Positions 9,243-32,844 of a DNA stretch of 33,035 nt are shown here, piece by piece. The position numbers and the translations under genes were made by a program. The DNA is from Candidatus Uhrbacteria bacterium (lineage in GTDB: Bacteria > Patescibacteriota > Patescibacteriia > UBA9934 > GWF2-40-263). The notes beneath the pieces were generated by a model that made no database searches, had not been told where the DNA came from, and was given only the letters and a program-made list of their open reading frames with translations. The stretch lies in assembly GCA_018700535.1 (NCBI GenBank), contig JABITQ010000025.1, positions 1 through 33,035 of the forward strand, read 5' to 3'. Positions within the stretch are counted from its first letter, which is position 1; each line of letters begins with the position of its first letter.

Positions 9243-9404
9243 ACAGCACTGACTCCATGCAACGAAACATTCTTAAATGGGTTCGTGGCGTGGGGTCTTT
9301 TTGTTTTTTTGATAAATAGAAATGTGATTGTTTCCATTGACTAAATCCTAAAAACCTTATAGTTTTTGGATTGCTCAATGAACATCTCTGGTTTGGAGAC
9401 TACA

Positions 9405-9833
9405 ATGCAAAAGATACTTCCCTTCCTTCTGCTTAGCCTAATGACCGCATGCTCGTCGCCGACAAATGTGTGCAACTCGATTGTTGGTCCTTTTGGTGGC
9501 GGCATGTGCGCGACAAACACACAGGCAACCGACGACCCCAGCGATCACTCAGAGGACGCAAGCATTATCGTGTTCGGTAAAGATGACTACGCTGACACAG
9601 GTGTTGCAGAAACGATTGAACTCGATCAAACCACCACCTGTGGTGGAGGTAGCGAGTTTTGCGACGAAGGCGAGGACATCCTCCCCTATACCTACATCGA
9701 CTACACCGAGATCCAAACCTGGTACATGTGCCCCACGGACGGATCCCCCACATTCCACGGCGGAGAGGAAGTGAGCGGGGTTGTAGTAATGGACGATGGA
9801 GCAATGTTAGAAGGTTGCTACGTGCTGATGTAG
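9405..9833 (+). CDS. Putative Cys-rich acidic lipoprotein
   Basis: GGAG RBS; signal with lipobox-like MTAC; several Cys; promoter at 9337; terminator about 9847-9878. Confidence 0.7.
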   Translation: MQKILPFLLLSLMTACSSPTNVCNSIVGPFGGGMCATNTQATDDPSDHSEDASIIVFGKDDYADTGVAETIELDQTTTCGGGSEFCDEGEDILPYTYIDYTEIQTWYMCPTDGSPTFHGGEEVSGVVVMDDGAMLEGCYVLM

Positions 9834-10012
9834 CCCACGATACGTTGACCCGAGTGAATACTTGGGTCTTTTTTGTTTATATATAGAAGAAAGCACTCAC
9901 ACTCATACATTGACAATAACCAACAATTGGCGTATTCTCCGCGGTCACCACGACTACCCCATTCAGCGGGTGCCCATTTTGGGAAAGCTGATTCTTGCAC
10001 ATGGAGCATTTG

Positions 10013-10402
10013 ATGCGATTCCTTCTTTGTCTTGCGATCGGATTGATGGGGACAGCTCAAGCAGCTGACTACCCCGGCCGTCACATGTTCACATCTCATT
10101 GGATCAACGACACCGCCTCGATCGAGCAATCACTGAGGCAGACCCCTTGGACTGAGCGCTGCGAGTTACGCAGATCGACCAGTCACACAGGCTTCAGTCT
10201 GCGAGCCAAAGTGGATGAGAAGGGGCAGCTGGTGGACCCGAAGGTTGTGGTCTTCACCATCATCGGTACCAGCACCGACGACGATCTTCTTGCCTGCGTT
10301 CTCAAGCAAGCACGTGCGCTCGAACCCCTTTCGGTAGAGGATGGATTCACCCCAGGCTACGAAGGTGCTGGAGACTTCACCTACCAATACTTCCTGCCCT
10401 AG
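10013..10402 (+). CDS. Secreted protein with TonB C-terminal/AgmX-PglI C-terminal-like pattern
   Basis: Signal peptide ending AQA; LRAKVDEKGQLVDPKVV...LLACVL...FTYQY pattern; promoter TTGACA(9910)-N17-TATTCT. Confidence 0.55.
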   Translation: MRFLLCLAIGLMGTAQAADYPGRHMFTSHWINDTASIEQSLRQTPWTERCELRRSTSHTGFSLRAKVDEKGQLVDPKVVVFTIIGTSTDDDLLACVLKQARALEPLSVEDGFTPGYEGAGDFTYQYFLP

Positions 10403-10491
10403 GCACAGCCGTCCACCAACGAGGACCAAACGGGTCGCTCATCTCTGGTGGGCGGCTCTTGTTTTACAATTTCGCCATAAAGACGAATTTT

Positions 10492-10553
10492 TGAAAAAGA
10501 AACACCCCACCGATCAACGAGATTCCAGTAGGGGTTTCTCGCTGACGATGGGG
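10492..10553 (-). repeat. 3' hairpin/terminator family A, copy 1
   Basis: GAAAAAGAAACA..CCCACCGATCAAC..GTTTCTCGCTGAC..GGGG; similar copies at 12331 and 12883. Confidence 0.75.
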
Positions 10554-10577
10554 CCAGCTTGCGTATGGGATTGTTGT

Positions 10578-10850
10578 TCAGGGTGAGATTGTGTTGCCAC
10601 GAGGACCGTGAATCATGATCATTACCATGGCACCGTCCTGACGGATCATGCCACCCAAACCACGTACGATAGTTCGTGCACTACGACCAACCGAGTCGGT
10701 CGGTACGAGTGAGGTAATCGCGAGTCCGTAGGGACACCCCAACTCTTCTGCAACACGACTCTTGATCTCATCATCAGTTCGCGAAGTTTTGACAATTTCA
10801 CGAATAGCTCTCTTGATACCGTCGTCGCTTAAATCTGTCCATGCACACAT
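10578..10850 (-). CDS. Hypothetical protein (cassette-type)
   Basis: AGGAG RBS before ATG 10850; promoter TTGACA(10925-10920)-N17-TATCTT. Confidence 0.7.
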   Translation of the reverse strand: MCAWTDLSDDGIKRAIREIVKTSRTDDEIKSRVAEELGCPYGLAITSLVPTDSVGRSARTIVRGLGGMIRQDGAMVMIMIHGPRGNTISP

Positions 10851-11017
10851 GATTTCTCTCCTAGTCAACGGGTGAAAGGTGAATTGCTGACAGATTAAGA
10901 TAGCATTAAATTGCCTTTTTGTCAATGTATTGAGGGTCAGAAGCAGGTGCATGCATTTACAAAACCAACAAAATATGTTGAACTCCCGCAGACCAACCAT
11001 GGTCTTTGGAGAATCCA

Positions 11018-11662
11018 ATGAGATCTATCATTGACGGCGTACCGTCAAATCTGTTCGCTGTCACCACCCGTGCGCTCAATGTAGTCCTGGGAGCTGACCC
11101 AACACAAGAGCGTCGAAGCATCTGCCTGATGTGTGCACGTGCTGATGATCACAAACAGGCGATTGTTACCTTGCTTGTAGGTGGCGAAGCAAATCGAGGA
11201 ATCCTCTCTGGGCTATTTGGTGAAGACCTCGCTTGGGCCGTGCATTGCATACGGTATGCAAGCCTCAAGCTGGCGTACCTTATAGCCAACCCTGATGCCG
11301 TCACATCTTTTGAGGGCGCAAACCCCGACGAAGATCTCTACGGTGGCGGTCTGCGGATCAAGAACAAGAAATTGTTCATCGTTCCCTCTGGCCTCAGCGC
11401 CGAAGGAGACCTGGTGGTGGGACTCCTTGTCGTCATCATGATTGGCGAGATCAACACCACCGAAGCGCGCGAAGTGGCAGAGAATGTCAGCGCGGAATGC
11501 CTAGCTTTGTTCGATGATACTGTAGTCGAAATCGAAGATTCCATTCCGGAATTCTCCTGCCCCATTTGCCGCTGCCCCAACACAACACATCACAAAACTG
11601 GTAACGACTCTAGTTACTTGGTCTGCAACGAATGTGGTCACTACGCCGCCTGGCGTTCGTAA
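11018..11662 (+). CDS. GlcG/HbpS-like domain fused to C-terminal zinc ribbon
   Basis: YASLK...YGGGLRI...PSGL...GD resembles the GlcG/HbpS A..K...GG.P...SG...D layout; CPICRC...CNECG at the C-terminus; GGAG RBS. Confidence 0.6.
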   Translation: MRSIIDGVPSNLFAVTTRALNVVLGADPTQERRSICLMCARADDHKQAIVTLLVGGEANRGILSGLFGEDLAWAVHCIRYASLKLAYLIANPDAVTSFEGANPDEDLYGGGLRIKNKKLFIVPSGLSAEGDLVVGLLVVIMIGEINTTEAREVAENVSAECLALFDDTVVEIEDSIPEFSCPICRCPNTTHHKTGNDSSYLVCNECGHYAAWRS

Positions 11663-11966
11663 ACCACAACCAACCGCCCCACGAGTAAGTCACCACCTAT
11701 CACGGTGGATCTACGACACCACTCTCGTGCGGGCGGTTTTTGTTTACCCAAACAAAAAAGGCGCAAGTAAATTGATTACTCGCGCCGCGTTAGGTGTGTG
11801 GTCAGTGTTGGGTCAGAGCCGTTCCATCCAATCGTAGTCGTGGTGAGTTGGTACTTATCGTTTATATTTGGACAGATTATCAACGTGAGAAAATAAAAAC
11901 ACCCCGCCGAAGCTACGAGTGAATTCTCGAACTTCATACGGGGTTCGTTGTTTGCCCAAGGGCTAG

Positions 11967-12233
11967 CTAGGCCTTGGTACCAGACTCTTCCATCAGATAG
12001 AAGGTGGCTGTGATCTCGTACTGTTCTCCGCGACATTGACCACAACTACACGGAGTGGTGTCGAACGTCTTGAATTCGACCGCCATTCGTTCCATGCCCT
12101 CGCCTGGAAAATGCTCGCCCCAAATAGAGACGATCTCTTGCCCCGTGACCTTGCCACTAGAATCGTGTGACTTATCGAGCTCAACATCGACTCTCTTTTG
12201 ACCATTTTCCATGACAACTTCGAGGCTTCTCAT
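11967..12233 (-). CDS. Hypothetical protein with CxCxxC motif
   Basis: AGGGGA RBS; promoter TTGACA-N17-TACCTT; terminator about 11890-11945. Confidence 0.65.
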   Translation of the reverse strand: MRSLEVVMENGQKRVDVELDKSHDSSGKVTGQEIVSIWGEHFPGEGMERMAVEFKTFDTTPCSCGQCRGEQYEITATFYLMEESGTKA

Positions 12234-12330
12234 AAGATATCCCTATTGGTGCTGGTGTACCGATGCTCATCATCAGGACCAGCGAAGGTAGCAATAATCA
12301 AAGCTCATGTCAACCGTTTAGGTGTCATTT

Positions 12331-12395
12331 TGAAAAAGAAACAACCCCACCGACAGCGAACCACCCGTAAGGTGTTTCTTGCTGACTGCGGGGTT
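12331..12395 (-). repeat. 3' hairpin/terminator family A, copy 2
   Basis: TGAAAAAGAAACAACCCCACCGACAGC..GTTTCTTGCTGAC..GGGGTT. Confidence 0.75.
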
Positions 12396-12405
12396 GAGCG
12401 TGCGT

Positions 12406-12702
12406 CTACATGAGTGCGTGGATGATCCCACCGATGACCAGGGCGCTCGTTGGTGCCGCAAACGCGTAAAAAATACGGCCTGTCACCGAGTCAAAAAAAT
12501 CCTCTGGATCTGGAATGTATTTGCTGGTCAGGAATGCAACAACGACTCCAAGCCCCATTGCCTGGAGAAATCCAATCGTCTGGATATGGAATGTCGTGAA
12601 GATGAACCAGTTCCAAAGCATCATGATGACAAAGCCAGAGTAGATGGCACTGACTGCATCAATGGCGGTGCTACAAGCGAAAATACCAAGAAGTACGACC
12701 AT
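12406..12702 (-). CDS. Small membrane protein (LWNWF motif, phage-like style)
   Basis: GGAG RBS before ATG 12702; three hydrophobic segments; TTGACA at 12776-12771. Confidence 0.65.
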   Translation of the reverse strand: MVVLLGIFACSTAIDAVSAIYSGFVIMMLWNWFIFTTFHIQTIGFLQAMGLGVVVAFLTSKYIPDPEDFFDSVTGRIFYAFAAPTSALVIGGIIHALM

Positions 12703-12882
12703 GACTTGCTCCAGCAAGAGGGTGTGAAGTCTCCGTTGAGACATTGCAAGATGACATAGGATTAGGACTCTGTCAATAGATTGGTATGGGGCATCTACCG
12801 CTTCAGACCCTAAACACCCTCAACCGCACCCCGCAGAGAGCGCCTTGCGTCTCACTGCTCAGAGATGCGGTTTTTGATTTTT

Positions 12883-12953
12883 GGAAAAAGAAACAACGCA
12901 CCCACGATCAGCAGACGTTTACGCAAATGCGTGTTTCTGCTGACGTGAGTGCG
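12883..12953 (-). repeat. 3' hairpin/terminator family A, copy 3
   Basis: GGAAAAAGAAACAACGCACCCACGATCAGC..GTTTCTGCTGACGTGAGTGCG. Confidence 0.75.
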
Positions 12954-12957
12954 CAAG

Positions 12958-13323
12958 CTAGGACTCAACCTCGGGTTTCTGCAGCTCTTGAGTGATTCCG
13001 AAACTTCGGAGAACAGCAGCCTCTGCCTCTGTGATAGGGCCAACTTCTTCCCATCCCCACTTCTTGTCACAGGTTCCACCTCCATAAGGCTCATGAAAAT
13101 CACCCTGCCTCTCGATGTACTCCACCCTCTTCGCAGCCGCAGCCTGCGGTTGCTGAGCAAGAGGCACTTGGTCCAGTGCGTAACCATACCAAGCGCCATA
13201 GTGTTCTGCGATGTTGAGATGGTCAGCTACTTCAGCAGCAGTACTAGCCACAACGTAACCGAGAGTCATTACCTCATCAACATCAGGGCCGGAAAAGCGT
13301 TTGGTAAGACGATAAAGCTTCAT
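12958..13323 (-). CDS. Hypothetical protein (phage-early-gene style)
   Basis: GAGGTG RBS; MKLYRL start; TTGACA promoter at about 13410. Confidence 0.7.
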   Translation of the reverse strand: MKLYRLTKRFSGPDVDEVMTLGYVVASTAAEVADHLNIAEHYGAWYGYALDQVPLAQQPQAAAAKRVEYIERQGDFHEPYGGGTCDKKWGWEEVGPITEAEAAVLRSFGITQELQKPEVES

Positions 13324-13476
13324 GACACCTCTCTTTTGTAATCGATTGTAACTGCCGCAGGGTTGTCAAAATGACTGGAGAATCTATCACGAAAACAGCC
13401 TTTTTGTCAATGGATGGAGGTGGGCGCTTAAAAAAGAAGAGACGCCTCGATGTATATCGGGGCGTCTTGCGTGTGT

Positions 13477-13902
13477 CTAGCTTGTGAGACGTTTGATGGG
13501 AGAAATGATGCACTTGCTCACTGCCCACCAGATAGCCCTCAAGAACGTCGCGAGGGTAAGTGGAACGATGAACCCAACTCCGATCACTAGTCGAAACAAG
13601 AGCTGTCCTTTGCGAACGAAGACTTCGTTCCAAAGAAAGATCGGAGGGGCTATGTATGAATCTCCGTGAAGGAACCTTTCAGCAGTGCTCGATATACCCT
13701 GCATATTCAAGAAGATGCAAAGCATGAACTGCAACAGAACGACGCTGAAGACCCGATCAGGGATGTTGAAATTGTGACCATCTGCATACAGCATCAGAAA
13801 AGTGATGGCTATAACCAGATACATCCCCAAGGTAAACTGAAAGGTCCATTTGCGCCCCGCGTTGAGGGAACTGACTTGCTCAGCAGTGTAAGCAGAAGAC
13901 AT
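13477..13902 (-). CDS. Hypothetical 3-TM membrane protein
   Basis: GAGGTG RBS before ATG 13902; TTGACT-N17-TACGAT promoter; terminator about 13430-13467. Confidence 0.7.
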   Translation of the reverse strand: MSSAYTAEQVSSLNAGRKWTFQFTLGMYLVIAITFLMLYADGHNFNIPDRVFSVVLLQFMLCIFLNMQGISSTAERFLHGDSYIAPPIFLWNEVFVRKGQLLFRLVIGVGFIVPLTLATFLRAIWWAVSKCIISPIKRLTS

Positions 13903-17945: not shown

Positions 17946-18106
17946 CCCGAATTCCCTTGTTTGAGTGATGGTGCTACTTGCACCAAGTGTACTACCTTAC
18001 CGAAAAGAGTACGGCAAAAAATAGCATTATTATTGATCTTTGTCAATGTATCGAAACTAAAAAACCCTCGTTTTGAGGGTTTTCATTCTATCTATTTTTC
18101 TTCAAC

Positions 18107-21893: not shown

Positions 21894-22057
21894 CCTAGCT
21901 ACGGCCGTTCACCATCTGGTGGGCGGCTCTTTTGTTTAGAACGATTCAATGTAAGTTAAAAAAGCTTTCGACCGATAGATTGACAACTAAGTAATATTTA
22001 AGTAAAAACTGAAGTCGTTGTATTCTCTGAATCTCGACGTCATCACTCGGAGCAATC

Positions 22058-24121: not shown

Positions 24122-24928
24122 CTAGAGGTTCAATCCGTCTCTGATCGACTCGACCGACATGCCTCCACGCTCCGAGAGTGCTTTGAACAATTCGGACGTT
24201 TGCGAAGGATCGCTAGGGAGGCGCCCTGCCATTTGGTCCATGAACTCGATGACGCTCTTTCGCGTCATGACCTTGATCAGCTCCAACATGAGTGTAAGGA
24301 ACCTCCTCAGATCATATGGGTCAAGCGCCCCATCGTTGATGCCATACCTCACTTGAAACAGCTCTGCCGCATACTTCACAACAGCTTCCTGAGAAAGCGC
24401 GCTGATCATGCATTGACGAGTCTCCTGATCGAGCTTTCTTGTATCTGCTCGTCTGACCGGCACACTTGCTTTTATTCGTCGAAGCAAGACATCACCCGCT
24501 CCTTCGCCAAGGCGATTGATGAAGGGCTCCATGAACACGAAGTCCATATTCCCATTCAAAACCACCCGCTCATTCGAGTCTTCCAAATATTCTTCAACAT
24601 GCCAGCTGATGAAAGAGCTGACGTCTGCCACATGACTGGCCATCGCTTCAGCGTCGACGAAATCGTCAATACTTGGATTCAGCCAACCGGCCTTGATGTC
24701 ACAGGCAGCGACAACGACTAGACCACCAAGACCTGTCCATTTGGTCGCCACCACACCAGCACCTGCAGGCACACGAGCCGCAACCAACTTGCTGCGAACA
24801 ACCCGTTTGATGAACAGATCGCTGTCTCCCGCCTTGTAGTGTTCAGGAGTCACGATCCCTGCATAGGGCTTGTTATCACCCTCAGTGATTATGACAACAA
24901 AATTTCGATTGAATACAGCAGAACTCAT
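24122..24928 (-). CDS. Hypothetical protein, paralog of 16637-17602
   Basis: Protein similarity plus shared 5' leader; GGAG RBS before ATG 24928; TTGACA-N17-TAGTTT. Confidence 0.8.
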   Translation of the reverse strand: MSSAVFNRNFVVIITEGDNKPYAGIVTPEHYKAGDSDLFIKRVVRSKLVAARVPAGAGVVATKWTGLGGLVVVAACDIKAGWLNPSIDDFVDAEAMASHVADVSSFISWHVEEYLEDSNERVVLNGNMDFVFMEPFINRLGEGAGDVLLRRIKASVPVRRADTRKLDQETRQCMISALSQEAVVKYAAELFQVRYGINDGALDPYDLRRFLTLMLELIKVMTRKSVIEFMDQMAGRLPSDPSQTSELFKALSERGGMSVESIRDGLNL

Positions 24929-25125
24929 CACCAACTCCGAGCTTGTGGAAGATCCACGTTTTGAGATTCACTTGCCTATTGAAAGAACACGGGGAAAACT
25001 AACATTGAGCAAAGGGATTGTCAATGTAAGACCATTGACAATAGTCCTGTAAATACATACAGTCCTGGGTCTTCTAGCGGAAATTTTATCCACGTCGAAG
25101 ACAAGATCATTTCAAGAGGTGAACG

Positions 25126-26244
25126 ATGAGTGAGTCATTCGTTAAAAGCGTTGTGCGAGTTGGTGTTTTCCCTGGCAACAAACCTGGATTCTTCGGAGTC
25201 GTGACAGAGTGGGGCCAAAACACGGCAATGGTTCGACGTTTTGCCAGCGACGGTGCTGATGAGCACATCTCTGTGCCAAGAGCTACGGTGAGCATACAGA
25301 TGCTGCCCGGTGCTGGGCCACAAAGTGTCCTTTTCAATCACCTCACTTCCAAAGATGAGCACCTGGCAACTTTGAGCAGGCCAGAGGTGATCGTCACGTT
25401 AGCTGAACGCACCAAGCTCCTTACGCACCGTGAAAAAATGGAAGCAGTGATCCTTGCCGACGTTGTCAGACCGATCACGCTTGCGTTGATGGAAAAGATC
25501 AAGAATCCTGAACTGCGCCTTTGGGTACTCATAGACCCGCGAGTGAGCGATCTGGCATTGCACATGGCGGAAACTGCGAGCAAGGCAGAACTCTGCAATG
25601 CATCAATCAGGATGTACGGAGAATGTGTCAATGACAACGTGCAGCACCCCCACTGCTTCACAAGACTGAATACGTTTCTGGATTCGTTAAGATTCGAACC
25701 AGCTGAGCTGGAAAGGTTCTTCGCAACCGTGACAGTAGCTCCGGGCTCGGAAGACGTACACAATACCTGGGTGCGTTGCATGACAACAGGTCTGGCTCTC
25801 ACGTACTGCCGCTACCTTCAGCGCACCGGCGGTTCTCTTCCAGCACGTCTCCATGTTCTAGACGTTCATCTGCCGAGAACTGAAGAGGTGCGTAAAGTTC
25901 CGCTGACACCTGAACTGCTGTCCGGAATCCTCACTGACGATGCACCGATTGAAGTGATCCAGATGGTGCGCTATGGAATGACCCGGGATGCAGCGGTCAA
26001 GTTCCTGACGAGCAGTGACGCACGCGTCAATCTTGTCATGAGACTGACGGCCCTGTTGTTCTTGAGCAAACAAGCATTCTTCGACAGATGTCTATTAGAA
26101 CTACGAACGGTCATGAGCCCCATGGTTGCCCAAGCGGTAATCACTGCCGGGGACGCACATGCCAACCACGACGTGTTTGCGTATGGCGTGGATAAGCTCA
26201 GGGTTGAGTTTCAAAATCAGGCTTCACAACCTCCCTCCGAATAA
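25126..26244 (+). CDS. Hypothetical protein, tandem paralog 1
   Basis: Shares SVPRAT.SI, LF.HLT.K..HL.TL..P.VI, MEAV..ADV, LR.WVL.DP.V, LTDDAPIEVI, HAN..VF with the next gene. Confidence 0.85.
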   Translation: MSESFVKSVVRVGVFPGNKPGFFGVVTEWGQNTAMVRRFASDGADEHISVPRATVSIQMLPGAGPQSVLFNHLTSKDEHLATLSRPEVIVTLAERTKLLTHREKMEAVILADVVRPITLALMEKIKNPELRLWVLIDPRVSDLALHMAETASKAELCNASIRMYGECVNDNVQHPHCFTRLNTFLDSLRFEPAELERFFATVTVAPGSEDVHNTWVRCMTTGLALTYCRYLQRTGGSLPARLHVLDVHLPRTEEVRKVPLTPELLSGILTDDAPIEVIQMVRYGMTRDAAVKFLTSSDARVNLVMRLTALLFLSKQAFFDRCLLELRTVMSPMVAQAVITAGDAHANHDVFAYGVDKLRVEFQNQASQPPSE

Positions 26245-26488
26245 CGTAGGAGGATTCATAGCAGTTGGTACGACACCAGCTGCTATTTTGTTTGCAGAGT
26301 TTTATTGAAGGTTACAACAACCACCCCAAACCCCTCCTTCCCCATACGTAAAAGGAGGGGCCTCGGAGTCGGAATAGCTGTTCCGGCATAGTGGTTCCAT
26401 TGACAAAAACGTCAAAAATACATATGGTCCCGGGTCTTCTAGTGGGATTTATCCATGTTGAAGATACAATCATTTCAAGAGGTGAACG

Positions 26489-27595
26489 ATGAGTGAAGTA
26501 TACACAGCACTCGCAACTACCACTGTGCTCATTGGGGATTCACCCAGTGGCAACCCCGACTTTTTCGGACAAGTGGTGGAGATCGACAGCATGTCGGCGT
26601 TGGTAAGCTGCATCATCTCCGATGGTGAATACCAGCTTGTATCTGTGCCAAGAGCAACAATGAGCATCAGGGTGATGGGTAGTGGAGGAAGTAGGCACAC
26701 ACTCTTTCACCACCTCACCAACAAAGGCTCTCATCTCAATACCCTGAAAGATCCGACCGTGATCACAAAGCTGGCCAAGAAGACTGGTCTGTTGGATGAT
26801 CGTGAGATGATGGAAGCAGTGTTGATCGCCGACGTATTGGACGTGGTTACACTTGCTCTGCTGAATGCCATCACAGATCCAGACCTGCGCTTTTGGGTAC
26901 TGACAGACCCAAGTGTAGATGACTTGGCTGCAGACATGAGAGGCATCGCGAGTAAACAAGAGGTTTGTGACGCAGCCATCAAACTCTACGAACAACTCGA
27001 TGGTGAACTCATAGGTAGGCCCCCCATCTACAAAACACTTCTCGCGTGCCTGCGCACAGTAGTGGAAGATCAAGATGAGATGGTGAGGTTTATCGAAACC
27101 GTCGTAGACTTTCAAGATTCGGAAATCATTCACAATGCCGTTGTGCGTGGCATGGATGAGAATCTTGCCTTGAGGTGCTACACATGTCTTCAGGCCAGTG
27201 GCAGCTCTCTGCAAACACGTCTGCTCATTCTGGAACACCATCTACCAACCATGGAAATTACAAGCCATGAAGCACTTGCTGTATTCCTTACCGATGACGC
27301 ACCAATCGAGGTGATCATCGCAGCTGCTGAGAAGATGAATCACCAAGTATCCTATTTGATCGTGTTGGATAAACAATCTACTTCTATCATGAGGATGGCA
27401 GCTCTATGGAGACTCAGCAAGTTTGAAAATCACCCAGAATTCCTCGTTGCCGCACACAAAAAGATGAGCCCTGAACTTCTCCAGGAAGCATTCGCAACTG
27501 TGGAAACACATGCCAATAGCGGTGTGTTTGCTGATGTAATAGCAACACTCAAGATCATGTCTGAAGCCCAGGCTTCAGACCCACCCTCCGCATAA
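26489..27595 (+). CDS. Hypothetical protein, tandem paralog 2
   Basis: See paralog 1; TTGACA(26400)-N17-TATGGT promoter. Confidence 0.85.
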   Translation: MSEVYTALATTTVLIGDSPSGNPDFFGQVVEIDSMSALVSCIISDGEYQLVSVPRATMSIRVMGSGGSRHTLFHHLTNKGSHLNTLKDPTVITKLAKKTGLLDDREMMEAVLIADVLDVVTLALLNAITDPDLRFWVLTDPSVDDLAADMRGIASKQEVCDAAIKLYEQLDGELIGRPPIYKTLLACLRTVVEDQDEMVRFIETVVDFQDSEIIHNAVVRGMDENLALRCYTCLQASGSSLQTRLLILEHHLPTMEITSHEALAVFLTDDAPIEVIIAAAEKMNHQVSYLIVLDKQSTSIMRMAALWRLSKFENHPEFLVAAHKKMSPELLQEAFATVETHANSGVFADVIATLKIMSEAQASDPPSA

Positions 27596-27665
27596 CGCAG
27601 GAGGTCCATAGCAGTTGGTACGACACCAACTGCTATTTTGTTTGTGGAGTTTTGAACAAATTTGA

Positions 27666-27829
27666 AACAACCACCCCTAACCCCTCCTTCCCCACACTTA
27701 AAAGGAGGGGGATATGAGCAGACGTTTCGAATCTCTGTTCCGGTCCCCCGCCTTGTAATAACTAGGAAGGAGGGGTTAGCCGTTCGAGGCTCTGAGGAGC
27801 CCTCAGGCTCTCGAAGAGGGGTGGTTGTT
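27666..27829. repeat. REP/MITE-like inverted-repeat element with nested palindrome
   Basis: AACAACCACCCCTAACCCCTCCTTCC ... GGAAGGAGGGGTTAG[insert]AGGGGTGGTTGTT; left arm also present at 26316-26360. Confidence 0.7.
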
Positions 27830-27849
27830 ATCGAAGTCAGAAATATTCT

Positions 27850-27878
27850 CAAACAAAATACGCACAACCCCGGTAAGG
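27850..27878 (-). repeat. 29-bp exact direct repeat, copy 1 (terminator)
   Basis: CAAACAAAATACGCACAACCCCGGTAAGG. Confidence 0.92.
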
Positions 27879-27918
27879 CTGTGCGTTGCGTATTCTTTGT
27901 CCGTCTATGACGACGGTG

Positions 27919-28428
27919 TCACTCCATCACATTGTCGAAGTACCTGCGTGCGAGATGCCACGGCAGGATGAGGGTCCTTGATGTGTACTTGTCAAAGACG
28001 AACGTCAGCATACACTCACGCTCATCCCCTTCAGCGCCACTTTCGAGATTGTCTCCCACGCGGAACTGCTGCGGAAGATTCGGATCATGGGTTGCCACAT
28101 GAAACATTGCTTCTGCAACATCGGTACCAAGACGCGTAAAACTGTGGGGTGAATTGTCATACCCCATAAATGATTCCAGGCTCACCGGCTGTGCAGTCAG
28201 CAAACGCTTGATGTCTACACAATCATCGAGCTCATGCCTTTCCTCTGCATCGCCTGAGACATGCAACCTGATGCTACATGCACCACCACCGTCTTCTCCA
28301 GCAAAGAATTCAACTTGAAACCTAATCCCTTCTCTACGTTCGAATTTGTTCACGAAGACAGGCTTGAGTCTCTTCATTCTGTCATCTCTGGGATCGAACT
28401 GAAAAACCTCTTGACTGGCACTGCCCAT
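27919..28428 (-). CDS. Hypothetical protein flanked by direct repeats
   Basis: AGGAG RBS; TTGACC upstream; lies between two copies of the 29-bp repeat. Confidence 0.75.
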   Translation of the reverse strand: MGSASQEVFQFDPRDDRMKRLKPVFVNKFERREGIRFQVEFFAGEDGGGACSIRLHVSGDAEERHELDDCVDIKRLLTAQPVSLESFMGYDNSPHSFTRLGTDVAEAMFHVATHDPNLPQQFRVGDNLESGAEGDERECMLTFVFDKYTSRTLILPWHLARRYFDNVME

Positions 28429-28495
28429 TGATCTCTCCTATGTGATCGACCTTAATCTCTCACAACTACTCCCACAGGTCAATCTCCTCACTCGG

Positions 28496-28524
28496 CAAAC
28501 AAAATACGCACAACCCCGGTAAGG
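28496..28524 (-). repeat. 29-bp exact direct repeat, copy 2 (upp terminator)
   Basis: Identical to 27850-27878. Confidence 0.92.
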
Positions 28525-28545
28525 TTGTGCGCTTGTCGTTACTTG

Positions 28546-29196
28546 CTACTTGCGCCACTGTCGGTCGCCGGCGTCGCCGAGACCTGGGACGATGAAGGCG
28601 TTTTCGTTGAGTTCGGGATCGATTGCTGTGACGTGGATCTTCACATCTCGGTGCTCTTTGTTCAAACGTGCAGCACCTGCATTTGCAGCGATGATTGCGA
28701 CATAGATGATCCTTTTGGCACCATGCTTTTTCAGGTGCGCCACTGCAGCGCAAGCTGAGCCTCCAGTCGCCAGCATCGGATCAAGTACGTAGCAGGTTGT
28801 TCCGCGTGAGATAACCTTGGGAACTTTGCTGCCTCTGAAGTTTGGTCGGTGTGTTTCTTCGTCACGATCCATGTCCATGTGCCAGACCAGCGCACCTGGG
28901 ATCATTTCTTGAAACGCACCAAGCATCCCCTGGCCAGCACGCATGATTGGAACGAAGGCGTGTGTAGACTCGAGAATGAAGGGAACCTGCGCACGCACCC
29001 CAAGAGGGGTCGTCACTTCCCCATTCTCGAGATGAAGACCCTCGAGCGCTTGGATTGCCATCATCATACTGAGGTGGTGCAGATACTGACGAAAAAGAAC
29101 GTTCGGAGTGTTCTCGTCGCGAAGCTTGCCCAGGAGCACTCGAGCAATCGGGTGCATGTTTATCGCAGCTTCAACAGACGGACGCATCGGACACAT
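28546..29196 (-). CDS. upp: Uracil phosphoribosyltransferase
   Basis: LRD, TPLG, PIMRAG, RDEET, LDPMLATGGS, IVPGLGDAGDR motifs; GGAG RBS before ATG 29196. Confidence 0.95.
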   Translation of the reverse strand: MCPMRPSVEAAINMHPIARVLLGKLRDENTPNVLFRQYLHHLSMMMAIQALEGLHLENGEVTTPLGVRAQVPFILESTHAFVPIMRAGQGMLGAFQEMIPGALVWHMDMDRDEETHRPNFRGSKVPKVISRGTTCYVLDPMLATGGSACAAVAHLKKHGAKRIIYVAIIAANAGAARLNKEHRDVKIHVTAIDPELNENAFIVPGLGDAGDRQWRK

Positions 29197-29294
29197 GAAT
29201 CTCTCCGTAATTTGGATTCGGGTGCATAATAGTCGATGTTCTAGATTCTGGCAAAACAAAAAACCCTCGATGATGTCGAGGGTTTTATTTTCTA

Positions 29295-30575
29295 TTATTC
29301 CCAACCTTCTCCTTGTCGCACCAGCAAATCATCAGCACGCAATGGCTCTGCCATTAAGTCCTTCACCACACGCTCCATGCGAGCACTTTGTGAACCCTTC
29401 ACCAACACAACATCGCCTTTATTAATCTCTCGATCAAGCCAACGCCCAGCCTCTACGGAATTTGTAAAATGATGCGTTTCTGTTTCAGGAATCCCCGCCT
29501 CAATCGCAGCACGACGCAAATCTTGCGCCATCTCCCCCACGGTCACAAGCACATCCACACCAACCTCTGCGGCATACATCCCGATCATACGATGCTCGTC
29601 CTCGGTGTACTGCCCAAGCTCAGCCATGTACCCAAGCGCAGCAATGCGTCGTGAGCTTTCTGCTGGAGAAAATTCTGCGAGCACATCGAGTGCTGCTTTC
29701 ATTGATGCTGGAGCTGCATTGTAACTTGAGTCGATAATGAGTGATCCTTTGATTCCAGCAAGTGGGTTCATGCGCCCAGGCTCGAACGTGATATCTGGAA
29801 TACCAGCCAAGATCTGCTCATTGCTCAACCCAAGGTGACGCGCAACGACGACTGCCGGAAGCACAGATGATGCACCGGAGCGCCCAAGAACATTTTCTAG
29901 TTGGATAACGAGAGGGTCGTGACTCTCTGCTTCTGTCGTGACAGACAGTGTTGAGAATACTTCCCCAGGCTCAAATGAGAAATCTTCTCTCGTATCTAAT
30001 GTGTAAGCAGTTGCCTGCAAATCAGCATTGGTTTGAAATCCATACGTGACGACAGGTGCAGATGCATGCTCTGTTAACCCCATCACCAACGAATCGTCGG
30101 CATTCATAACGCACAACCCTTCGCTGTCAGTCGCAGAGAGGATCTCTGCCTTTTCCTCCGCGAGTTGCTCAACAGATCGAAAGTACTCAGCGTGCACAGG
30201 AGAGATTCGTGTCAGCACACTCACTGAAGGTTTTGCCACATCTGTGAGATAGCTCATGTCGCCAGGGTGATCAACAGCGTATTCAAGAACAAATACCTCT
30301 GGCACGTTTATTGGTTTCATCAAGAGAATTCTGAGCCAACCAAGCACGGACTTACCAGGAGATGGTGCACCTAAAATAGTAAGCGGGACACCAAACTCGT
30401 TGTTGTAGTTTTTGTAGGTAGATCGCACGGTGTACTTTTCAGCCAAAACAGTAGCGATTGCATTGCGGGCGGAAGTCTTTCCGACAGACCCTGTCACAGC
30501 AACGATAATCGGTTTGTGCTCGGCAATAAGCTTTTGCGCTTTCTTTTTAATCTGTTTTTTGATGAAGTCTTTCAT
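29295..30575 (-). CDS. murF: UDP-N-acetylmuramoyl-tripeptide--D-Ala-D-Ala ligase
   Basis: VTGSVGKTS, NNEFGVPLT, GRM, IDSSYNA, M.ELG...H, LVKGSQ.ARME motifs. Confidence 0.93.
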   Translation of the reverse strand: MKDFIKKQIKKKAQKLIAEHKPIIVAVTGSVGKTSARNAIATVLAEKYTVRSTYKNYNNEFGVPLTILGAPSPGKSVLGWLRILLMKPINVPEVFVLEYAVDHPGDMSYLTDVAKPSVSVLTRISPVHAEYFRSVEQLAEEKAEILSATDSEGLCVMNADDSLVMGLTEHASAPVVTYGFQTNADLQATAYTLDTREDFSFEPGEVFSTLSVTTEAESHDPLVIQLENVLGRSGASSVLPAVVVARHLGLSNEQILAGIPDITFEPGRMNPLAGIKGSLIIDSSYNAAPASMKAALDVLAEFSPAESSRRIAALGYMAELGQYTEDEHRMIGMYAAEVGVDVLVTVGEMAQDLRRAAIEAGIPETETHHFTNSVEAGRWLDREINKGDVVLVKGSQSARMERVVKDLMAEPLRADDLLVRQGEGWE

Positions 30576-30582
30576 ATCATTG

Positions 30583-32352
30583 TTATTCAACACTCCTCAC
30601 AGGAGGGATCTCAAAATACTGTAGCAGAAACTCGGCGATCTCCCCAAAGAGTGGAGCGGCCGTAGACTCAGCCCAGAAGACGTCCTTTGGATTGTCGATC
30701 CGGACTACCATTGCAAAACGTGGATCTTCAACCGGACCAAAACCTGCGAATGACCCAATAGTTGAATCCTGACTATATCCTCCACTGCTACTAGCAACCT
30801 GCGCGGTTCCGGTTTTACCGGCAATATAATATCCAGGCACACCAGCCTGTGTTCCGTGACCATGCTCAATAACTGAGACGAGCATTGCAGCAATCGTACG
30901 TGCAGTCGACGGCTGGATTACCTGTGCAAGATCTTGTGAACTATGCACTTCCACTGATCCATCGTCATAACGAATCTCATCGATGATCTGCGGTTTTTTC
31001 AAAACACCTCCATTTGCAAGCGCTGCATAAGCCATTGCCATCTGAAGCGGCGTCACCGTAATCCCCTGTCCGTAAGATGCCGTCGCGGCGTAAATCTCTG
31101 CACCGATATCAAGCGAGGCGATTGTCCCGGCAGATTCTGTATCAAGCTCAATCCCCGTCTGCACACCAAACCCAAATGCTTTTACGTAATCTACAAACGC
31201 ATCCATTCCCATCTGCCGCATCGAGAAGATCATCCCTGTATTAATCGAGTCTTCCAGAACTTTTGTCATATCAACCATGCCGTACACTTTGCTCTCGGCA
31301 TTCCGAATAGGTTTTGGCCAACCCTCAACCATTGAATACCCTTTGTCCTCAAACAAAGTCTGTGGGCTCACTGCATCGGCATCAATTGCTGCCGCCATAG
31401 TGATTGGCTTAAAAATTGACCCAGGCTCATACGCATAAAAAATCGCTGGGTTATTAAACGCACGAATGCTTTCTACCTCGTTATATGCATTTGGATCATA
31501 ATCAGGCGCCCCACACATCGCGAGCACACGCCCTGTTGCCGGCTCAATAATCACCACAGACCCTCCGTCGGCATCATGTCGCTTAACAGCCTCCTGCAAT
31601 GATGAGCAGGCCATGTATTGAATCGTGCGGTCTAGTGACAAGACAATGTCAGCACCATCGACAGCAGGCTCGAGCGATTGATCTGCCACCGCAATAAGTC
31701 TCCCTGAAATATCGCGTTCAGATAATAAAGACCCCTCCTTACCAGAAAGCAGCTCATCAAAGTGACCTTCGATTCCATACTTACCAGATTCTGATCCATC
31801 TTCGTTTGTCCCCAAAAATCCAAGCACGTGCCCACTCATCTCTGCCTCTGGATACAAACGTGTTGGTTCGCGCACAAACGCAACCCCATCAAAATCAAAC
31901 GCGAGGATTTCGTCTAGCATCTCATCCCCCACCTCTCGCATGATCGGCTCGTAAGGGTCTTCCGGCTGATCTATCCGTTCTTCAAACGCATCAATTTTTT
32001 CCTCATCCCAACCAAAGACTCCACCAAGCGCTTCAGCAACTTCATCTGGCTCCTCGATTAATCTTGGATCGGCATACACAAATGCCAGGCGATGATTTGT
32101 CGCCACCGCAACCAAGGTCTCGTCTTTTTCGTCGTGCACAAAGACGGTTCCTCTGTCAGGAACAAGTTGTTGCAATAACTCGTGCTGACCGCTTGCAAGC
32201 GCATTGTAAAAGCCATGGTTGATTACCTGCAACCAAAACAATTTAATGACAATGACGGACGCAAAAAGAATCGCTCCCCATCGCAGCGCTTCAAGACGCA
32301 CATCACGATCAGAGCCTCTCGTTGTTTTCCATTTTTTCTTTGTCTGTCTCAT
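30583..32352 (-). CDS. ftsI: Class B penicillin-binding protein (FtsI/PBP2-type transpeptidase)
   Basis: N-terminal TM; RG.V, R.YP, G.YGIE, EPGSIFK (SxxK), SIN (SxN), KTGTAQ motifs. Confidence 0.9.
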   Translation of the reverse strand: MRQTKKKWKTTRGSDRDVRLEALRWGAILFASVIVIKLFWLQVINHGFYNALASGQHELLQQLVPDRGTVFVHDEKDETLVAVATNHRLAFVYADPRLIEEPDEVAEALGGVFGWDEEKIDAFEERIDQPEDPYEPIMREVGDEMLDEILAFDFDGVAFVREPTRLYPEAEMSGHVLGFLGTNEDGSESGKYGIEGHFDELLSGKEGSLLSERDISGRLIAVADQSLEPAVDGADIVLSLDRTIQYMACSSLQEAVKRHDADGGSVVIIEPATGRVLAMCGAPDYDPNAYNEVESIRAFNNPAIFYAYEPGSIFKPITMAAAIDADAVSPQTLFEDKGYSMVEGWPKPIRNAESKVYGMVDMTKVLEDSINTGMIFSMRQMGMDAFVDYVKAFGFGVQTGIELDTESAGTIASLDIGAEIYAATASYGQGITVTPLQMAMAYAALANGGVLKKPQIIDEIRYDDGSVEVHSSQDLAQVIQPSTARTIAAMLVSVIEHGHGTQAGVPGYYIAGKTGTAQVASSSGGYSQDSTIGSFAGFGPVEDPRFAMVVRIDNPKDVFWAESTAAPLFGEIAEFLLQYFEIPPVRSVE

Positions 32353-32397: not shown

Positions 32398-32844
32398 CTA
32401 CAGCTCAGAGAAATCGTCTTCACCCACAACACGTCCTAAGTACGCACTGTTTTCTCCGGTGTTTTCATTGTTGATAATTCGGATCAATTCACCGTTCTGT
32501 GCCTCGTAGTCGGTAAACGTATATTTGTCCTTCACCTCGGTGACAGATTCACCAACCACCTCGGTTACCATCCCCGCATCCGCGTAGGTAAACTCGTACT
32601 CTTTGTTTTGATAAAGCACTGCCTCATCTTCTGCCTCGATCAACTCTTGGATCTTTTCAAACAACACAAGTTCGTCTTCGTCTGCAACAACTGAGATCAT
32701 GCGTTCTTCACCATCATCATACAACCAACGCATCTCTTGTCCTCCCTTAAGGGTGATGATCGCGTGACCGATATGAGTGAACGGCTCGTTAAAAACACTT
32801 GCCGACTGCCCTGGCTCTTTCGCTAAAAATTGTTCAATCGTCAT
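32398..32844 (-). CDS. Acidic protein, DUF4178-like
   Basis: GGAGG RBS; W..D.G...ISV, Y...Y....AG, F.DYE..NG, Y.G pattern. Confidence 0.6.
   Translation of the reverse strand: MTIEQFLAKEPGQSASVFNEPFTHIGHAIITLKGGQEMRWLYDDGEERMISVVADEDELVLFEKIQELIEAEDEAVLYQNKEYEFTYADAGMVTEVVGESVTEVKDKYTFTDYEAQNGELIRIINNENTGENSAYLGRVVGEDDFSEL

What the first reader, a model, noticed from the sequence alone, without database searches (positions are those of the whole stretch)
27850..28535. ORFan unit bracketed by a 29-bp exact direct repeat that is the upp terminator
Seen: CAAACAAAATACGCACAACCCCGGTAAGG occurs at 27850 and 28496, 646 bp apart. It terminates both upp and the unrelated 169-aa ORF. Removing one period would restore upp plus its terminator cleanly. 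Inference: the footprint of a cassette inserted by recombination at a terminator, or of a duplication followed by ORF replacement. This is the best local clue to the mechanism.
Basis: partly seen in the sequence, partly recalled or inferred. Interest (0 to 1): 0.78.

Follow-up and report, generated by a model that had tools for sequence, protein, structure and literature searches.

The report
Duplicated terminator brackets an accessory gene
In a tiny marine Patescibacteria genome, the transcription stop signal of the uracil-salvage gene upp is repeated behind an unrelated small gene of unknown function, which suggests that single-gene units are added next to housekeeping genes by copying a short stretch of DNA.

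Summary
The 29-mer is exact at 27850 and 28496. It extends to 37 nt with two differences and occurs nowhere else in the 1.03-Mb genome. Both copies are minus-strand intrinsic terminators: a 12-bp stem, a 3-nt loop and an ATTTTGTTTG tail. One follows upp and the other follows the 169-aa ORF.

The ORF is not upp-derived (hhalign probability 0.12%). It is not a strict ORFan either, because it belongs to a rare, patchy conserved family. Four marine runs and two other metagenome contigs hold only the filled form. No empty site or circle was seen, but only contigs could be examined.

The pair is not unique in kind. The genome has 18 sharply bounded exact repeats of 22-47 nt at roughly one-gene spacing. 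Seven loci lie behind tandem paralogs; in the six tested, synonymous sites are near saturation. Four lie behind unrelated genes, including clpP.

My best reading is a duplicative gain of a self-contained transcription unit at upp's terminator. This resembles a phage moron or PeSL cassette, and the mechanism is unproven. The main rival is local homogenisation of terminators. Interest is moderate.

The parts
28496..28532 (-). Copy R2: the intrinsic terminator of upp. Stem-loop at 28506-28532, U-tract at 28496-28505.
   Evidence: It starts 13 nt after the upp stop codon.
27850..27886 (-). Copy R1: the intrinsic terminator of the 169-aa gene. Stem-loop at 27860-27886, U-tract at 27850-27859.
   Evidence: It differs from R2 only at 27879 and 27886. 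Both differences are in the 5' arm, and both keep pairing as A-U or G.U.
27919..28428 (-). The 169-aa gene: an acidic protein with no known domain, a member of a rare conserved family.
   Evidence: ORF. No match in Pfam, NCBIfam or PADLOC; one sub-threshold PHROGs match, phrog_23622, E 0.038. Homologues share the motifs HEFDDCxD...PVxL and LPW...YF. Single copy in the genome.
28429..28495 (-). 5' region of the 169-aa gene. It has an RBS (AGGAGA, 5 nt before the ATG) and a weak promoter-like site (TTGACC, 17 nt, GAGATT).
   Evidence: Read directly. The promoter scan lists no site here, because 8 of 12 matches is below its threshold. The promoter is therefore inferred.
27887..27918 (-). 3' untranslated spacer of the 169-aa gene, with a small 5-bp hairpin. 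It is not shared with upp.
   Evidence: no alignable similarity with the spacer after upp.
28546..29190 (-). upp, uracil phosphoribosyltransferase.
   Evidence: Pfam PF14681, E 1.8e-59. Its own promoter-like site TTGCCA-17-TATTAT lies at 29254-29226.
29260..29286 (-). Terminator-like hairpin after the Mur-ligase gene (murF-like, 29295-30593). It shows that upp is its own transcription unit.
   Evidence: Pfam hits for the ligase.
27661..27835 (.). Long imperfect palindrome just beyond R1. It is built from a ~47-nt element that is dispersed in the genome (REPIN-like).
   Evidence: I1; copies on C9, C19, C20, C34, C65, C96 and at 26316-26360; DNA fold -53.2 kcal/mol, z -8.2.
27608..27636 (+). Terminator of the convergent 368-aa gene (26489-27595). 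It is itself a near-copy of the terminator at 26258-26286 behind the tandem 372-aa paralogue.
   Evidence: (D1, I5).

Best explanation
The 646-bp period is a self-contained accessory transcription unit. It consists of a weak promoter, an RBS, a 169-aa gene of a rare conserved family and an intrinsic terminator. It was added directly behind upp's terminator, and in the process one 37-nt terminator (hairpin plus U-tract) came to stand on both sides of it.

Both copies now work as terminators, one for upp and one for the new gene, so neither gene reads into its neighbour. The ancestral hairpin was a perfect ACGCACAACC/GGTTGTGCGT stem. Each copy has since taken one A-to-G change in the 5' arm that still pairs as G.U.

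The step that made the duplication is inferred. One possibility is recombination at the short terminator homology with DNA that already carried it (circle integration or unequal exchange, as proposed for phage PeSL cassettes). The other is repair of a staggered break that copied the target on both sides. Once present, the two copies allow loss of the unit as a 646-bp circle or deletion that leaves upp and one terminator intact.

Shown: the anatomy, the uniqueness of the repeat, the unrelatedness of the two genes, the patchy family, and the reality of the arrangement in DNA. Inferred: the insertion itself, its direction and its mechanism.
For: Repeat and structure:
- The repeat is exact, unique to this locus and far beyond chance.
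- Identity begins at the base of the stem and ends with the U-tract. The flanks on both sides do not align.
- Both copies are predicted terminators.

The two genes:
- upp (PF14681) and the ORF are unrelated.
- The ORF is a real gene family. It has homologues in G039 (E 3.8e-12) and G022 (E 1e-5) among 60 relatives, 4 other representatives at E <= 1e-3 among 1.84 billion, and conserved motifs.
- Each homologue sits in a different context. In G039 it lies in a 60% GC island within roughly 30-43% GC flanks.
- G004 keeps ftsI-murF-upp synteny but has a convergent 319-aa gene after upp and no homologue there.

Analogous brackets at other loci:
- In the same genome, clpP (PF00574) is followed by a 30-nt exact repeat that includes its last four codons. 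The repeat recurs 1475 nt downstream, beyond an unknown 289-aa gene that has its own terminator-like hairpin (seen by eye in the sequence printed; not scanned).
- Two more loci (C59, C16) have unrelated neighbours with one shared terminator.
- All 20 bracketed genes tested lack Pfam, PHROGs and NCBIfam matches at the thresholds used, apart from two weak sub-threshold hits.

Reality of the arrangement:
- Logan contigs from 4 runs of one study bridge R1 and R2 separately. One contig (X3, record 21, 27671-28678) bridges both.
- The exact repeat (29 nt) is one base too short to collapse if those contigs were built from 31-letter words (the k of the assembly is recalled, not stated by a tool).
Against: - No empty-site allele, joint or circle was seen. 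Only contigs, which drop rare variants, could be laid.
- No donor locus or second context of the repeat was found in the genome, viral or metagenome collections. The two metagenome contigs that hold it show the R1 context only.
- The composition of the unit (about 50% GC) is the same as its surroundings.
- The nearest relatives are too distant to serve as a true empty site: upp is at most 52% identical, and upp was not found in the one same-genus genome at E <= 1e-20.
- In 7 other loci exact terminator or 3'-UTR repeats follow old tandem paralogues. This needs homogenisation or some process other than a single insertion, and the same process might act here.
- Homologous recombination alone does not explain how the first duplicate arose.
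Confidence: 0.48

Rival explanations
1. Local homogenisation. upp and the 169-aa gene are old neighbours, and their terminators were made alike by a short-tract copying process (gene conversion or template switching) that acts on neighbouring regulatory hairpins across this genome. On this reading the repeat is not an insertion scar.
For: - The genome has 18 sharply bounded exact direct repeats of 22-47 nt at 150-3500 nt spacing with unrelated flanks. A complement-only control gave 0.
- In 6 loci the two genes in front of the identical terminators are tandem paralogues. Amino-acid identity is only 29-46%, nucleotide identity 44-61%, and the same codon is used at only 33-63% of identical residues. 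A seventh locus (C48) shows the same by DNA similarity.
- Those terminators are therefore much younger than, or are kept alike independently of, the genes.
- Promoter and RBS islands behave the same way (25106/26469 in the window; C62, C16).
Against: - Conversion needs pre-existing similarity. upp and the 169-aa gene are unrelated, and so are their flanks, so a first duplication is still required.
- In the clpP case the second copy contains clpP codons and lies 320 nt beyond the inserted gene's own terminator. It is a footprint, not a converted terminator.
Confidence: 0.25
2. Remnant of a site-specifically integrated element. An integrase-bearing island or prophage integrated at upp's terminator (the attB site), leaving attL and attR with a shared core of 29-37 nt. 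Later deletions removed all but one cargo gene.
For: - Core repeats of 20-60 nt at the 3' ends of housekeeping or tRNA genes are typical of integrase-mediated insertion (established knowledge, recalled).
- Analogous brackets lie at the clpP 3' end and, in same-genus genome G001, next to a tRNA-like sequence (44 nt).
Against: - Each bracket has a different sequence.
- The genome holds only one partial tyrosine recombinase (at a contig end, C54), one large serine recombinase (C84) and two RAYT-like Y1 genes. None is in the window.
- The unit is an intact promoter-gene-terminator module with no gene fragments. It has no PHROGs match below E 0.01 (one hit at E 0.038).
Confidence: 0.12
3. Decay of a tandem array. 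The 169-aa gene once had a tandem paralogue with the same terminator between itself and upp. A deletion removed that paralogue's body and fused upp to its terminator.
For: Tandem paralogue arrays with shared terminators are common in this genome, including the neighbouring 372/368-aa pair in the window.
Against: - It needs a deletion that ends neatly between upp's stop codon and the hairpin.
- No paralogue or fragment of the 169-aa gene exists anywhere in the genome.
Confidence: 0.08
4. Artefact or decayed upp copy. Either the tandem arrangement is a metagenome assembly error through a repeat, or the ORF is a degenerate upp duplicate.
For: The genome is a 96-contig metagenome-type assembly.
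Against: - Independent contigs from 4 runs and one further metagenome contig (L020; 99.9% over 3291 nt, ending at 27924) show the same junctions.
- hhalign probability is 0.12%.
- The ORF has its own homologues.
Confidence: 0.03

Closest known systems
PeSL cassettes of T4-type phages (Arbiol, Comeau, Kutateladze, Adamia, Krisch 2010, PMC2839356; author list recalled; abstract and 'find' passages read)
   Same: ORFan genes are bracketed by direct copies of a short regulatory motif that contains a terminator stem-loop. Recombination between the copies deletes the gene or releases mini-circles of about 400-1400 bp. No dedicated recombinase is known. The modules are transcriptionally insulated.
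   Different: PeSLs are composite promoter-plus-terminator motifs of one consensus, repeated many times in a phage genome, so modules can move between sites. Here the repeat is a terminator only. It is unique to one locus of a cellular Patescibacteria genome, and every other bracket in the genome has its own sequence. No circles have been shown here.
Morons of lambdoid phages (an autonomous promoter-gene-terminator unit inserted between two genes; recalled, no paper read)
   Same: A single extra gene with its own expression signals sits between neighbours whose order is otherwise conserved.
   Different: Morons are defined in prophages and are not flanked by duplicated terminators. This unit lies in a chromosomal cell-wall and nucleotide-salvage neighbourhood.
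Integron gene cassettes with attC sites
   Same: A short ORF is followed by an imperfect palindrome, the unit size is about 0.5-1.5 kb, and most cargo is of unknown function.
   Different: There is no IntI or attI nearby, no array, and the repeat is locus-specific. The hairpin shows no GTTRRRY core by eye. The gene appears to have its own promoter.
attL/attR core duplications of integrase-mediated islands at 3' ends of tRNA or housekeeping genes
   Same: A direct repeat of a few tens of nt lies at the 3' end or terminator of a housekeeping gene and brackets foreign-looking DNA.
   Different: There is no integrase and no other element genes. The insert is only 0.6 kb.
Concerted evolution in tandem paralogue clusters, e.g. 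the S. aureus lpl cluster (Tsuru and Kobayashi 2008, PMC2568036; abstract read)
   Same: Short, highly conserved segments inside arrays of otherwise diverged tandem genes act as recombination sites.
   Different: There the conserved segment lies inside the ORF. Here it is the terminator or 3' UTR (and sometimes the promoter), and in the upp case the neighbours are not paralogues at all.

Membership tests
Intrinsic (Rho-independent) terminator | A G+C-rich stem-loop directly followed by a U-tract, downstream of a stop codon on the coding strand. | tested here: met
   Both copies have 12 pairs (6 G-C), a 3-nt loop and the tail ATTTTGTTTG, 13 and 32 nt after the stop codons.
Intrinsic (Rho-independent) terminator | Transcripts actually end there. 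| not testable with these tools
   No RNA run holds the stretch (one search lists DNA-type runs only).
Uracil phosphoribosyltransferase / PRTase (for the 169-aa ORF) | Sequence or profile similarity to PF14681/PF00156. | tested here: not met
   No Pfam hit at E <= 0.1. BLASTP E 0.12. hhalign probability 0.12%.
Integron cassette / attC | An IntI-type tyrosine recombinase and attI next to an array of cassettes. | tested here: not met
   The only PF00589 hit in the genome is a partial one at the end of contig C54. There is none in the window, and only 2 copies of the repeat exist.
Integron cassette / attC | attC core sites (GTTRRRY and its inverse) at the ends of the palindrome. | tested here: not met
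   By eye the hairpin holds GTTGTGC, which does not fit GTTRRRY. The motif definition is recalled.
PeSL-type regulatory cassette | A composite early promoter plus stem-loop motif of one consensus, repeated at many sites of the genome. | tested here: not met
   The repeat is limited to 2 copies. The 14 brackets that remain after excluding the 4 RAYT/REP palindrome islands each have a different sequence.
PeSL-type regulatory cassette | Recombination between flanking copies yields deletions or mini-circles. | tested here: inconclusive
   No joints were found in contigs of 4 runs. Contigs cannot show rare forms.
REP / REPIN-RAYT or IS200/IS605-type hairpin element | A dispersed family of the same palindrome, with a cognate Y1 (HUH) transposase flanked by it. 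| tested here: not met
   The terminator repeat is not dispersed. The two Y1 genes (C5, C42) are flanked by other palindromes.
Integrase att-site duplication | An integrase or other element genes between or beside the repeats. | tested here: not met
   Only the 169-aa gene lies between the repeats. It has no Pfam, NCBIfam or PADLOC match, and its only PHROGs match is at E 0.038.

The most novel reading that the evidence does not exclude
This Uhrbacteria-like lineage may gain, lose and swap single ORFan transcription units through a recombinase-independent, terminator-anchored route. Short exact regulatory repeats (22-62 nt: terminators, 3' UTRs, sometimes promoters) would serve as portable linkers that are copied at each insertion and then kept identical. 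That would explain why they stay letter-perfect behind tandem genes in which, at conserved residues, only 33-63% of codons are the same, and why they also bracket unrelated genes next to upp and clpP. It would be a cellular counterpart of phage PeSL shuffling and a route for making the 'dark matter' accessory genome of Patescibacteria.
Probability: 0.25. Interest if true: 0.75.

Novelty: new variant of a known kind. Interest (0 to 1): 0.52.

Why it matters
Patescibacteria genomes are small, yet they are full of lineage-specific genes of unknown function, and how these genes arrive is poorly understood. This locus shows a clean, checkable anatomy: a housekeeping gene, its terminator, one unknown gene, and the same terminator again. 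The same genome repeats the pattern at clpP and elsewhere, and it keeps terminators identical behind tandem paralogues whose coding DNA is nearly saturated with change.

If the repeats mark a general way of adding insulated single-gene modules, or a terminator-limited homogenising process, either would be a new feature of genome evolution in this group. Both are directly testable with population reads or inverse PCR.

If the pair is only a one-off old duplication, it is a minor curiosity.

Tried and rejected
Function of the 169-aa protein:
- The AlphaFold2 model built on the 6-sequence alignment was poor (pLDDT 39), so no fold search was run.
- ESM Atlas gave nothing at or above 0.9.
- A profile search of PDB sequences gave 0 hits at E <= 1.
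- PHROGs gave one hit at E 0.038, PADLOC gave 0 and NCBIfam gave 0.

Searches for empty sites and other contexts:
- A word-index protein search found only the protein itself.
- A protein-pattern scan of metagenome contigs found 0 relatives among 94 pattern matches.
- A 24-nt core of the repeat found 0 stretches in genome contigs and 0 in viral contigs.
- It found 2 metagenome contigs, both in the R1 context.
- One of these (L021) continues through the dispersed 47-nt element into sequence identical to contig C34. That is either a chimera or a real alternative junction, and I did not use it as evidence.

Reads:
- Only contigs were available. They showed no joints, insertions or deletions, and no loose ends among the rows shown at the repeat borders (5 rows were not shown). 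This is not evidence that the empty form is absent.
- Contig depths over the ORF look lower than over upp in 3 of 4 runs. The tool states that such depths cannot rank genes, so I draw nothing from this.

Relatives:
- Same-genus G001 gave no match for the Mur ligase at E <= 1e-10, none for the 368-aa protein at E <= 1e-3, and none for upp at E <= 1e-20. It could not serve as an empty site.

Other look-ups:
- An exact look-up of upp and the ligase with my chosen start codons found neither in the protein collection; this is uninformative.
- Earlier findings of this scan: none fit.
- Rfam: only the tRNA passed the gathering threshold. In 27550-28600 there was only a chance-level lncRNA hit, E 0.89.

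Literature:
- Three searches listed no paper on identical terminators bracketing genes. I saw listings and abstract starts only.
- For RAYT/REPIN together with 'candidate phyla radiation', none of the 10 listed of 36 papers held the third term.
- Supplementary files were not consulted.

Full report
**Observation**

The 29-mer is present exactly twice in the window, at 27850-27878 and 28496-28524. It has no other match at up to three mismatches and none in 100 shuffles. The repeat finder extends it to 36 nt at 97% with 646-nt spacing (D7). The sequence itself shows 37 aligned positions with two differences, at 27879 and 27886.

On the minus strand both copies are intrinsic-terminator-like. Each has a 12-bp stem with 6 G-C pairs, a 3-nt loop and the tail ATTTTGTTTG. 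One starts 13 nt after the stop codon of upp (28546-29190, PF14681, E 1.8e-59). The other starts 32 nt after the stop codon of the 169-aa ORF (27919-28428).

Identity begins at the base of the stem and ends with the U-tract. The flanks on both sides do not align. Both differences lie in the 5' arm and turn an A-U pair into G.U. The inferred ancestor is therefore a perfect stem, and each copy has taken one structure-neutral transition (reading).

**Uniqueness**

The window is contig C27 of a 1,033,565-base, 96-contig genome rated 98.6% complete. There the pattern occurs only at these two places at up to 3 mismatches, and a backwards control gives 0. blastn-short finds nothing longer than 17 nt elsewhere. 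A 24-nt core is absent from the genome and viral collections. The repeat is therefore not a dispersed element.

**The gene between the copies**

The gene has an AGGAGA RBS 5 nt before its ATG. It also has a weak promoter-like TTGACC-17-GAGATT site, read; this is below the threshold of the scan.

It is not upp-like. BLASTP gives a best E of 0.12, and profile-profile comparison of its family against nine upp sequences gives a probability of 0.12%. It is single-copy in the genome. It has no match in Pfam, NCBIfam or PADLOC, and only a sub-threshold one in PHROGs (E 0.038).

It is not a strict ORFan.
- Among 60 relatives, two have homologues at E <= 1e-5: G039 at 3.8e-12 and G022 at 1e-5. Three more genomes have only weak hits at E >= 0.0125.
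- The exhaustive representative search finds 4 other clusters at E <= 1e-3.
- The six aligned proteins share the motifs HEFDDCxD...PVxL and LPW...YF.
- The homologues sit in different contexts. In G039 the gene lies in a 60% GC island within flanks of about 30-43% GC. In G022 it is shortened and lies beside a tRNA-like stretch.

Function remains unknown. The structure model was poor (pLDDT 39), and the Atlas and PDB searches gave nothing usable.

**Organism and synteny**

Record titles of the best FtsI matches (up to 74% identity) name Candidatus Uhrbacteria and other Patescibacteria. The order ftsI-murF is kept in the 13 nearest loci whose flank reaches beyond ftsI, with an mraZ-like gene upstream in 8 loci (my name for the 148-aa ORF at 32398-32844; no family search was run). 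upp follows murF only in this genome and in G004. In G004, upp is followed by a convergent 319-aa gene, and there is no homologue of the 169-aa gene there.

upp itself is patchy. It was found in 9 of 36 relatives at E <= 1e-20, and not in the one same-genus genome. No relative is close enough to serve as a true empty site.

**Is the arrangement real, and is there an empty site?**

Four DNA-type marine runs of one study hold 83-97% of the sampled words. Their contigs bridge R1 and R2 with no differences in the unit, and one contig (X3, record 21, 27671-28678) bridges both copies and the whole gene. If Logan's contigs are built from 31-letter words (recalled; no tool states the k), the 29-nt exact repeat is one base too short to create an ambiguous path.

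A separate metagenome contig (L020) is 99.9% identical over 24634-27924. No joint, deletion or circle form was reported. Contigs drop rare variants, so this does not show that such forms are absent.

The two terminator copies differ at 2 of 37 positions, while L020 differs from the window at 3 of 3291. The duplication is therefore older than the sampled strain diversity, and an empty site need not exist in these samples (inference).

**Genome-wide context**

This changes the reading. A k-mer scan of the genome for direct exact repeats at 150-3500 nt spacing with unrelated 60-nt flanks found 51 of at least 16 nt and 18 of at least 22 nt (up to 47 nt). A complement-only control found none (earlier versions).

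I set aside six of the 18:
- four that are palindromes of two RAYT/REP-like systems (C5 5377, C42 16128, C8 twice);
- one inside tandem tRNA genes (C21);
- one coding low-complexity repeat (C50).

The rest are terminators, 3' UTRs or promoters shared by adjacent single-gene units. The identity islands are sharply bounded.

In six loci the two genes in front of identical terminators are tandem paralogues. These are C5 (47 nt), C9 (44), C30 9119 (42), C35 (28), C73 (33) and the window's own 372/368-aa pair. Their amino-acid identity is 29-46%, nucleotide identity is 44-61%, and the same codon is used at only 33-63% of identical residues. C48 (38 nt) is a seventh by DNA similarity beyond the repeat, with its second gene cut by the contig end. 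The coding DNA is therefore old, and the terminators are either young or kept alike.

In four loci no paralogy is detectable:
- upp and the 169-aa gene;
- clpP and a 289-aa gene (30 nt);
- C59, a 147-aa and a 190-aa gene in front of lepA (29 nt);
- C16, a 285-aa and a 216-aa gene next to hpf (24 nt).

The clpP case is telling. The repeat contains clpP's last four codons and stop codon. Its second copy lies 1475 nt downstream, about 320 nt beyond the 289-aa gene, which has its own terminator-like hairpin (seen by eye in the printed sequence, not scanned). It is a footprint, not a working terminator.

None of 20 bracketed genes tested has a Pfam match. In the subsets scanned against PHROGs and NCBIfam, the only matches at E <= 0.01 were two far sub-threshold hits: phrog_16279 for the 216-aa gene and NF008175 at 15 bits (cutoff 788) for the 289-aa gene. 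The 22 bracketed proteins compared show no cross-locus similarity.

The same-genus genome G001 (227 kb sampled, the first 20 contigs) shows two such islands, of 62 and 44 nt, plus a third 27-nt row at a contig start that I did not examine. A different genus of the family (G030, 400 kb sampled) shows one clear and two doubtful islands. No non-Patescibacteria control was run.

**Mechanism**

Site-specific recombination is unlikely. Every bracket has its own sequence, and the genome holds only one partial tyrosine recombinase at a contig end, one large serine recombinase and two Y1 (RAYT-like) genes with their own palindromes.

For the two housekeeping cases (upp, clpP) the simplest history is a duplicative gain of one insulated transcription unit, with a 30-37-nt piece of the resident gene's 3' flank ending up on both sides. 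Two routes could produce this. One is short-homology recombination with DNA that already carried that piece. The other is repair of a staggered break. I cannot tell which from the data, and I mark this step as inferred.

The nearest described system is the PeSL cassette of T4-type phages. There, ORFans flanked by repeated promoter/stem-loop motifs are deleted, inserted and released as mini-circles without a known recombinase (PMC2839356; abstract and passages read).

The main rival is terminator-limited homogenisation between neighbours. This is needed anyway for the paralogue loci. It cannot create identity between unrelated sequences, so at upp it would still need a founding duplication.

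Decayed array, integrase remnant and artefact are lesser rivals. A decayed upp copy is excluded.

**Verdict**

The more interesting result is the genome-wide habit of letter-perfect regulatory repeats between neighbouring single-gene units, which I did not find described in three literature searches (listings only).

Noticed in passing
window 27661-27835 (also 26316-26360): A long imperfect palindrome between the convergent terminators. Folded as DNA it gives -53.2 kcal/mol, z -8.2. It is built from a ~47-nt element that also occurs on contigs C9 (twice), C19, C20, C34, C65 and C96. In the runs, many unrelated contigs end in it. It resembles a REPIN, and no cognate transposase was identified.
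   Followed up: partly
G000 C5:5383-6078 and C42:16274-16921 (L162, L163): Two Y1 (PF01797) transposase-like genes. Each is flanked on both sides by its own perfect palindrome (35 and 46 nt) that is dispersed over many contigs. These look like RAYT/REP-type systems in a Patescibacteria genome. None of the 10 listed papers (of 36 that held at least 2 of the 3 terms) combined RAYT/REPIN with 'candidate phyla radiation'.
   Followed up: partly
window 25126-26244 and 26489-27595: Tandem 372- and 368-aa paralogues of unknown function with 40% amino-acid identity. Their 5' UTR/RBS/start (28 nt exact; 49 nt at 90%) and their terminator plus downstream element (104 nt at 87%) are far better conserved than the coding DNA (55% nucleotide identity).
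   Followed up: partly
G000 C30:2103-2132 and 3578-3607 (L153): A 30-nt exact direct repeat containing the last four codons and stop codon of clpP. It brackets 1.4 kb holding one unknown 289-aa gene with its own terminator-like hairpin (by eye). It looks like an insertion footprint.
   Followed up: partly
L021 1-2042: A metagenome contig that joins window 27896-27652 (R1 plus the palindrome) through the dispersed 47-nt element to sequence 99.9% identical to contig C34. That sequence holds tRNA-Gln, a 308-aa ORF and a further ORF cut at the contig end; neither was scanned against any family library. It is either an assembly chimera at the repeat or a real alternative arrangement.
   Followed up: partly
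window 28595-28640: In run X3 one contig is identical to the window from 27671 to 28594 and then carries 10 differences in 46 nt inside the 3' end of upp. This suggests a divergent upp allele or strain. The contig path may be mixed at a shared stretch.
   Followed up: no
L004 1315-1330 / 2046-2061 and 2304-2319 / 3117-3132: In G039 the homologue of the 169-aa gene lies in a 60% GC island flanked by a perfect 16-nt inverted repeat. The neighbouring ~246-aa ORF (not scanned; methyltransferase-like by eye) is likewise flanked by another perfect 16-nt inverted repeat.
   Followed up: no
window 9800-13500, 18018-18054, 21903-21936: Repeated intergenic modules among small unknown ORFs. These are promoter-like (TTGTCAATG-containing, 4 copies), terminator-like (3' arm TCTGGTGGGCGGCTCTT shared by terminators 11.5 kb apart) and a 45-nt family with 3 copies.
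   Followed up: no
P0004 (3279 aa): A giant protein from the representative library matches residues 71-109 of the 169-aa protein in six separate stretches (E 1.1e-4). This part of the family may be a repeat domain elsewhere.
   Followed up: no
L144 8356-8399 / 9335-9378 and L142 1619-1680 / 2262-2323 (G001): The same-genus genome has a 44-nt exact hairpin repeat at 979-nt spacing, with the second copy abutting a tRNA-like sequence. It also has a 62-nt exact repeat at 643-nt spacing just upstream of a purA-like gene. Flanks are unrelated in both cases.
   Followed up: partly
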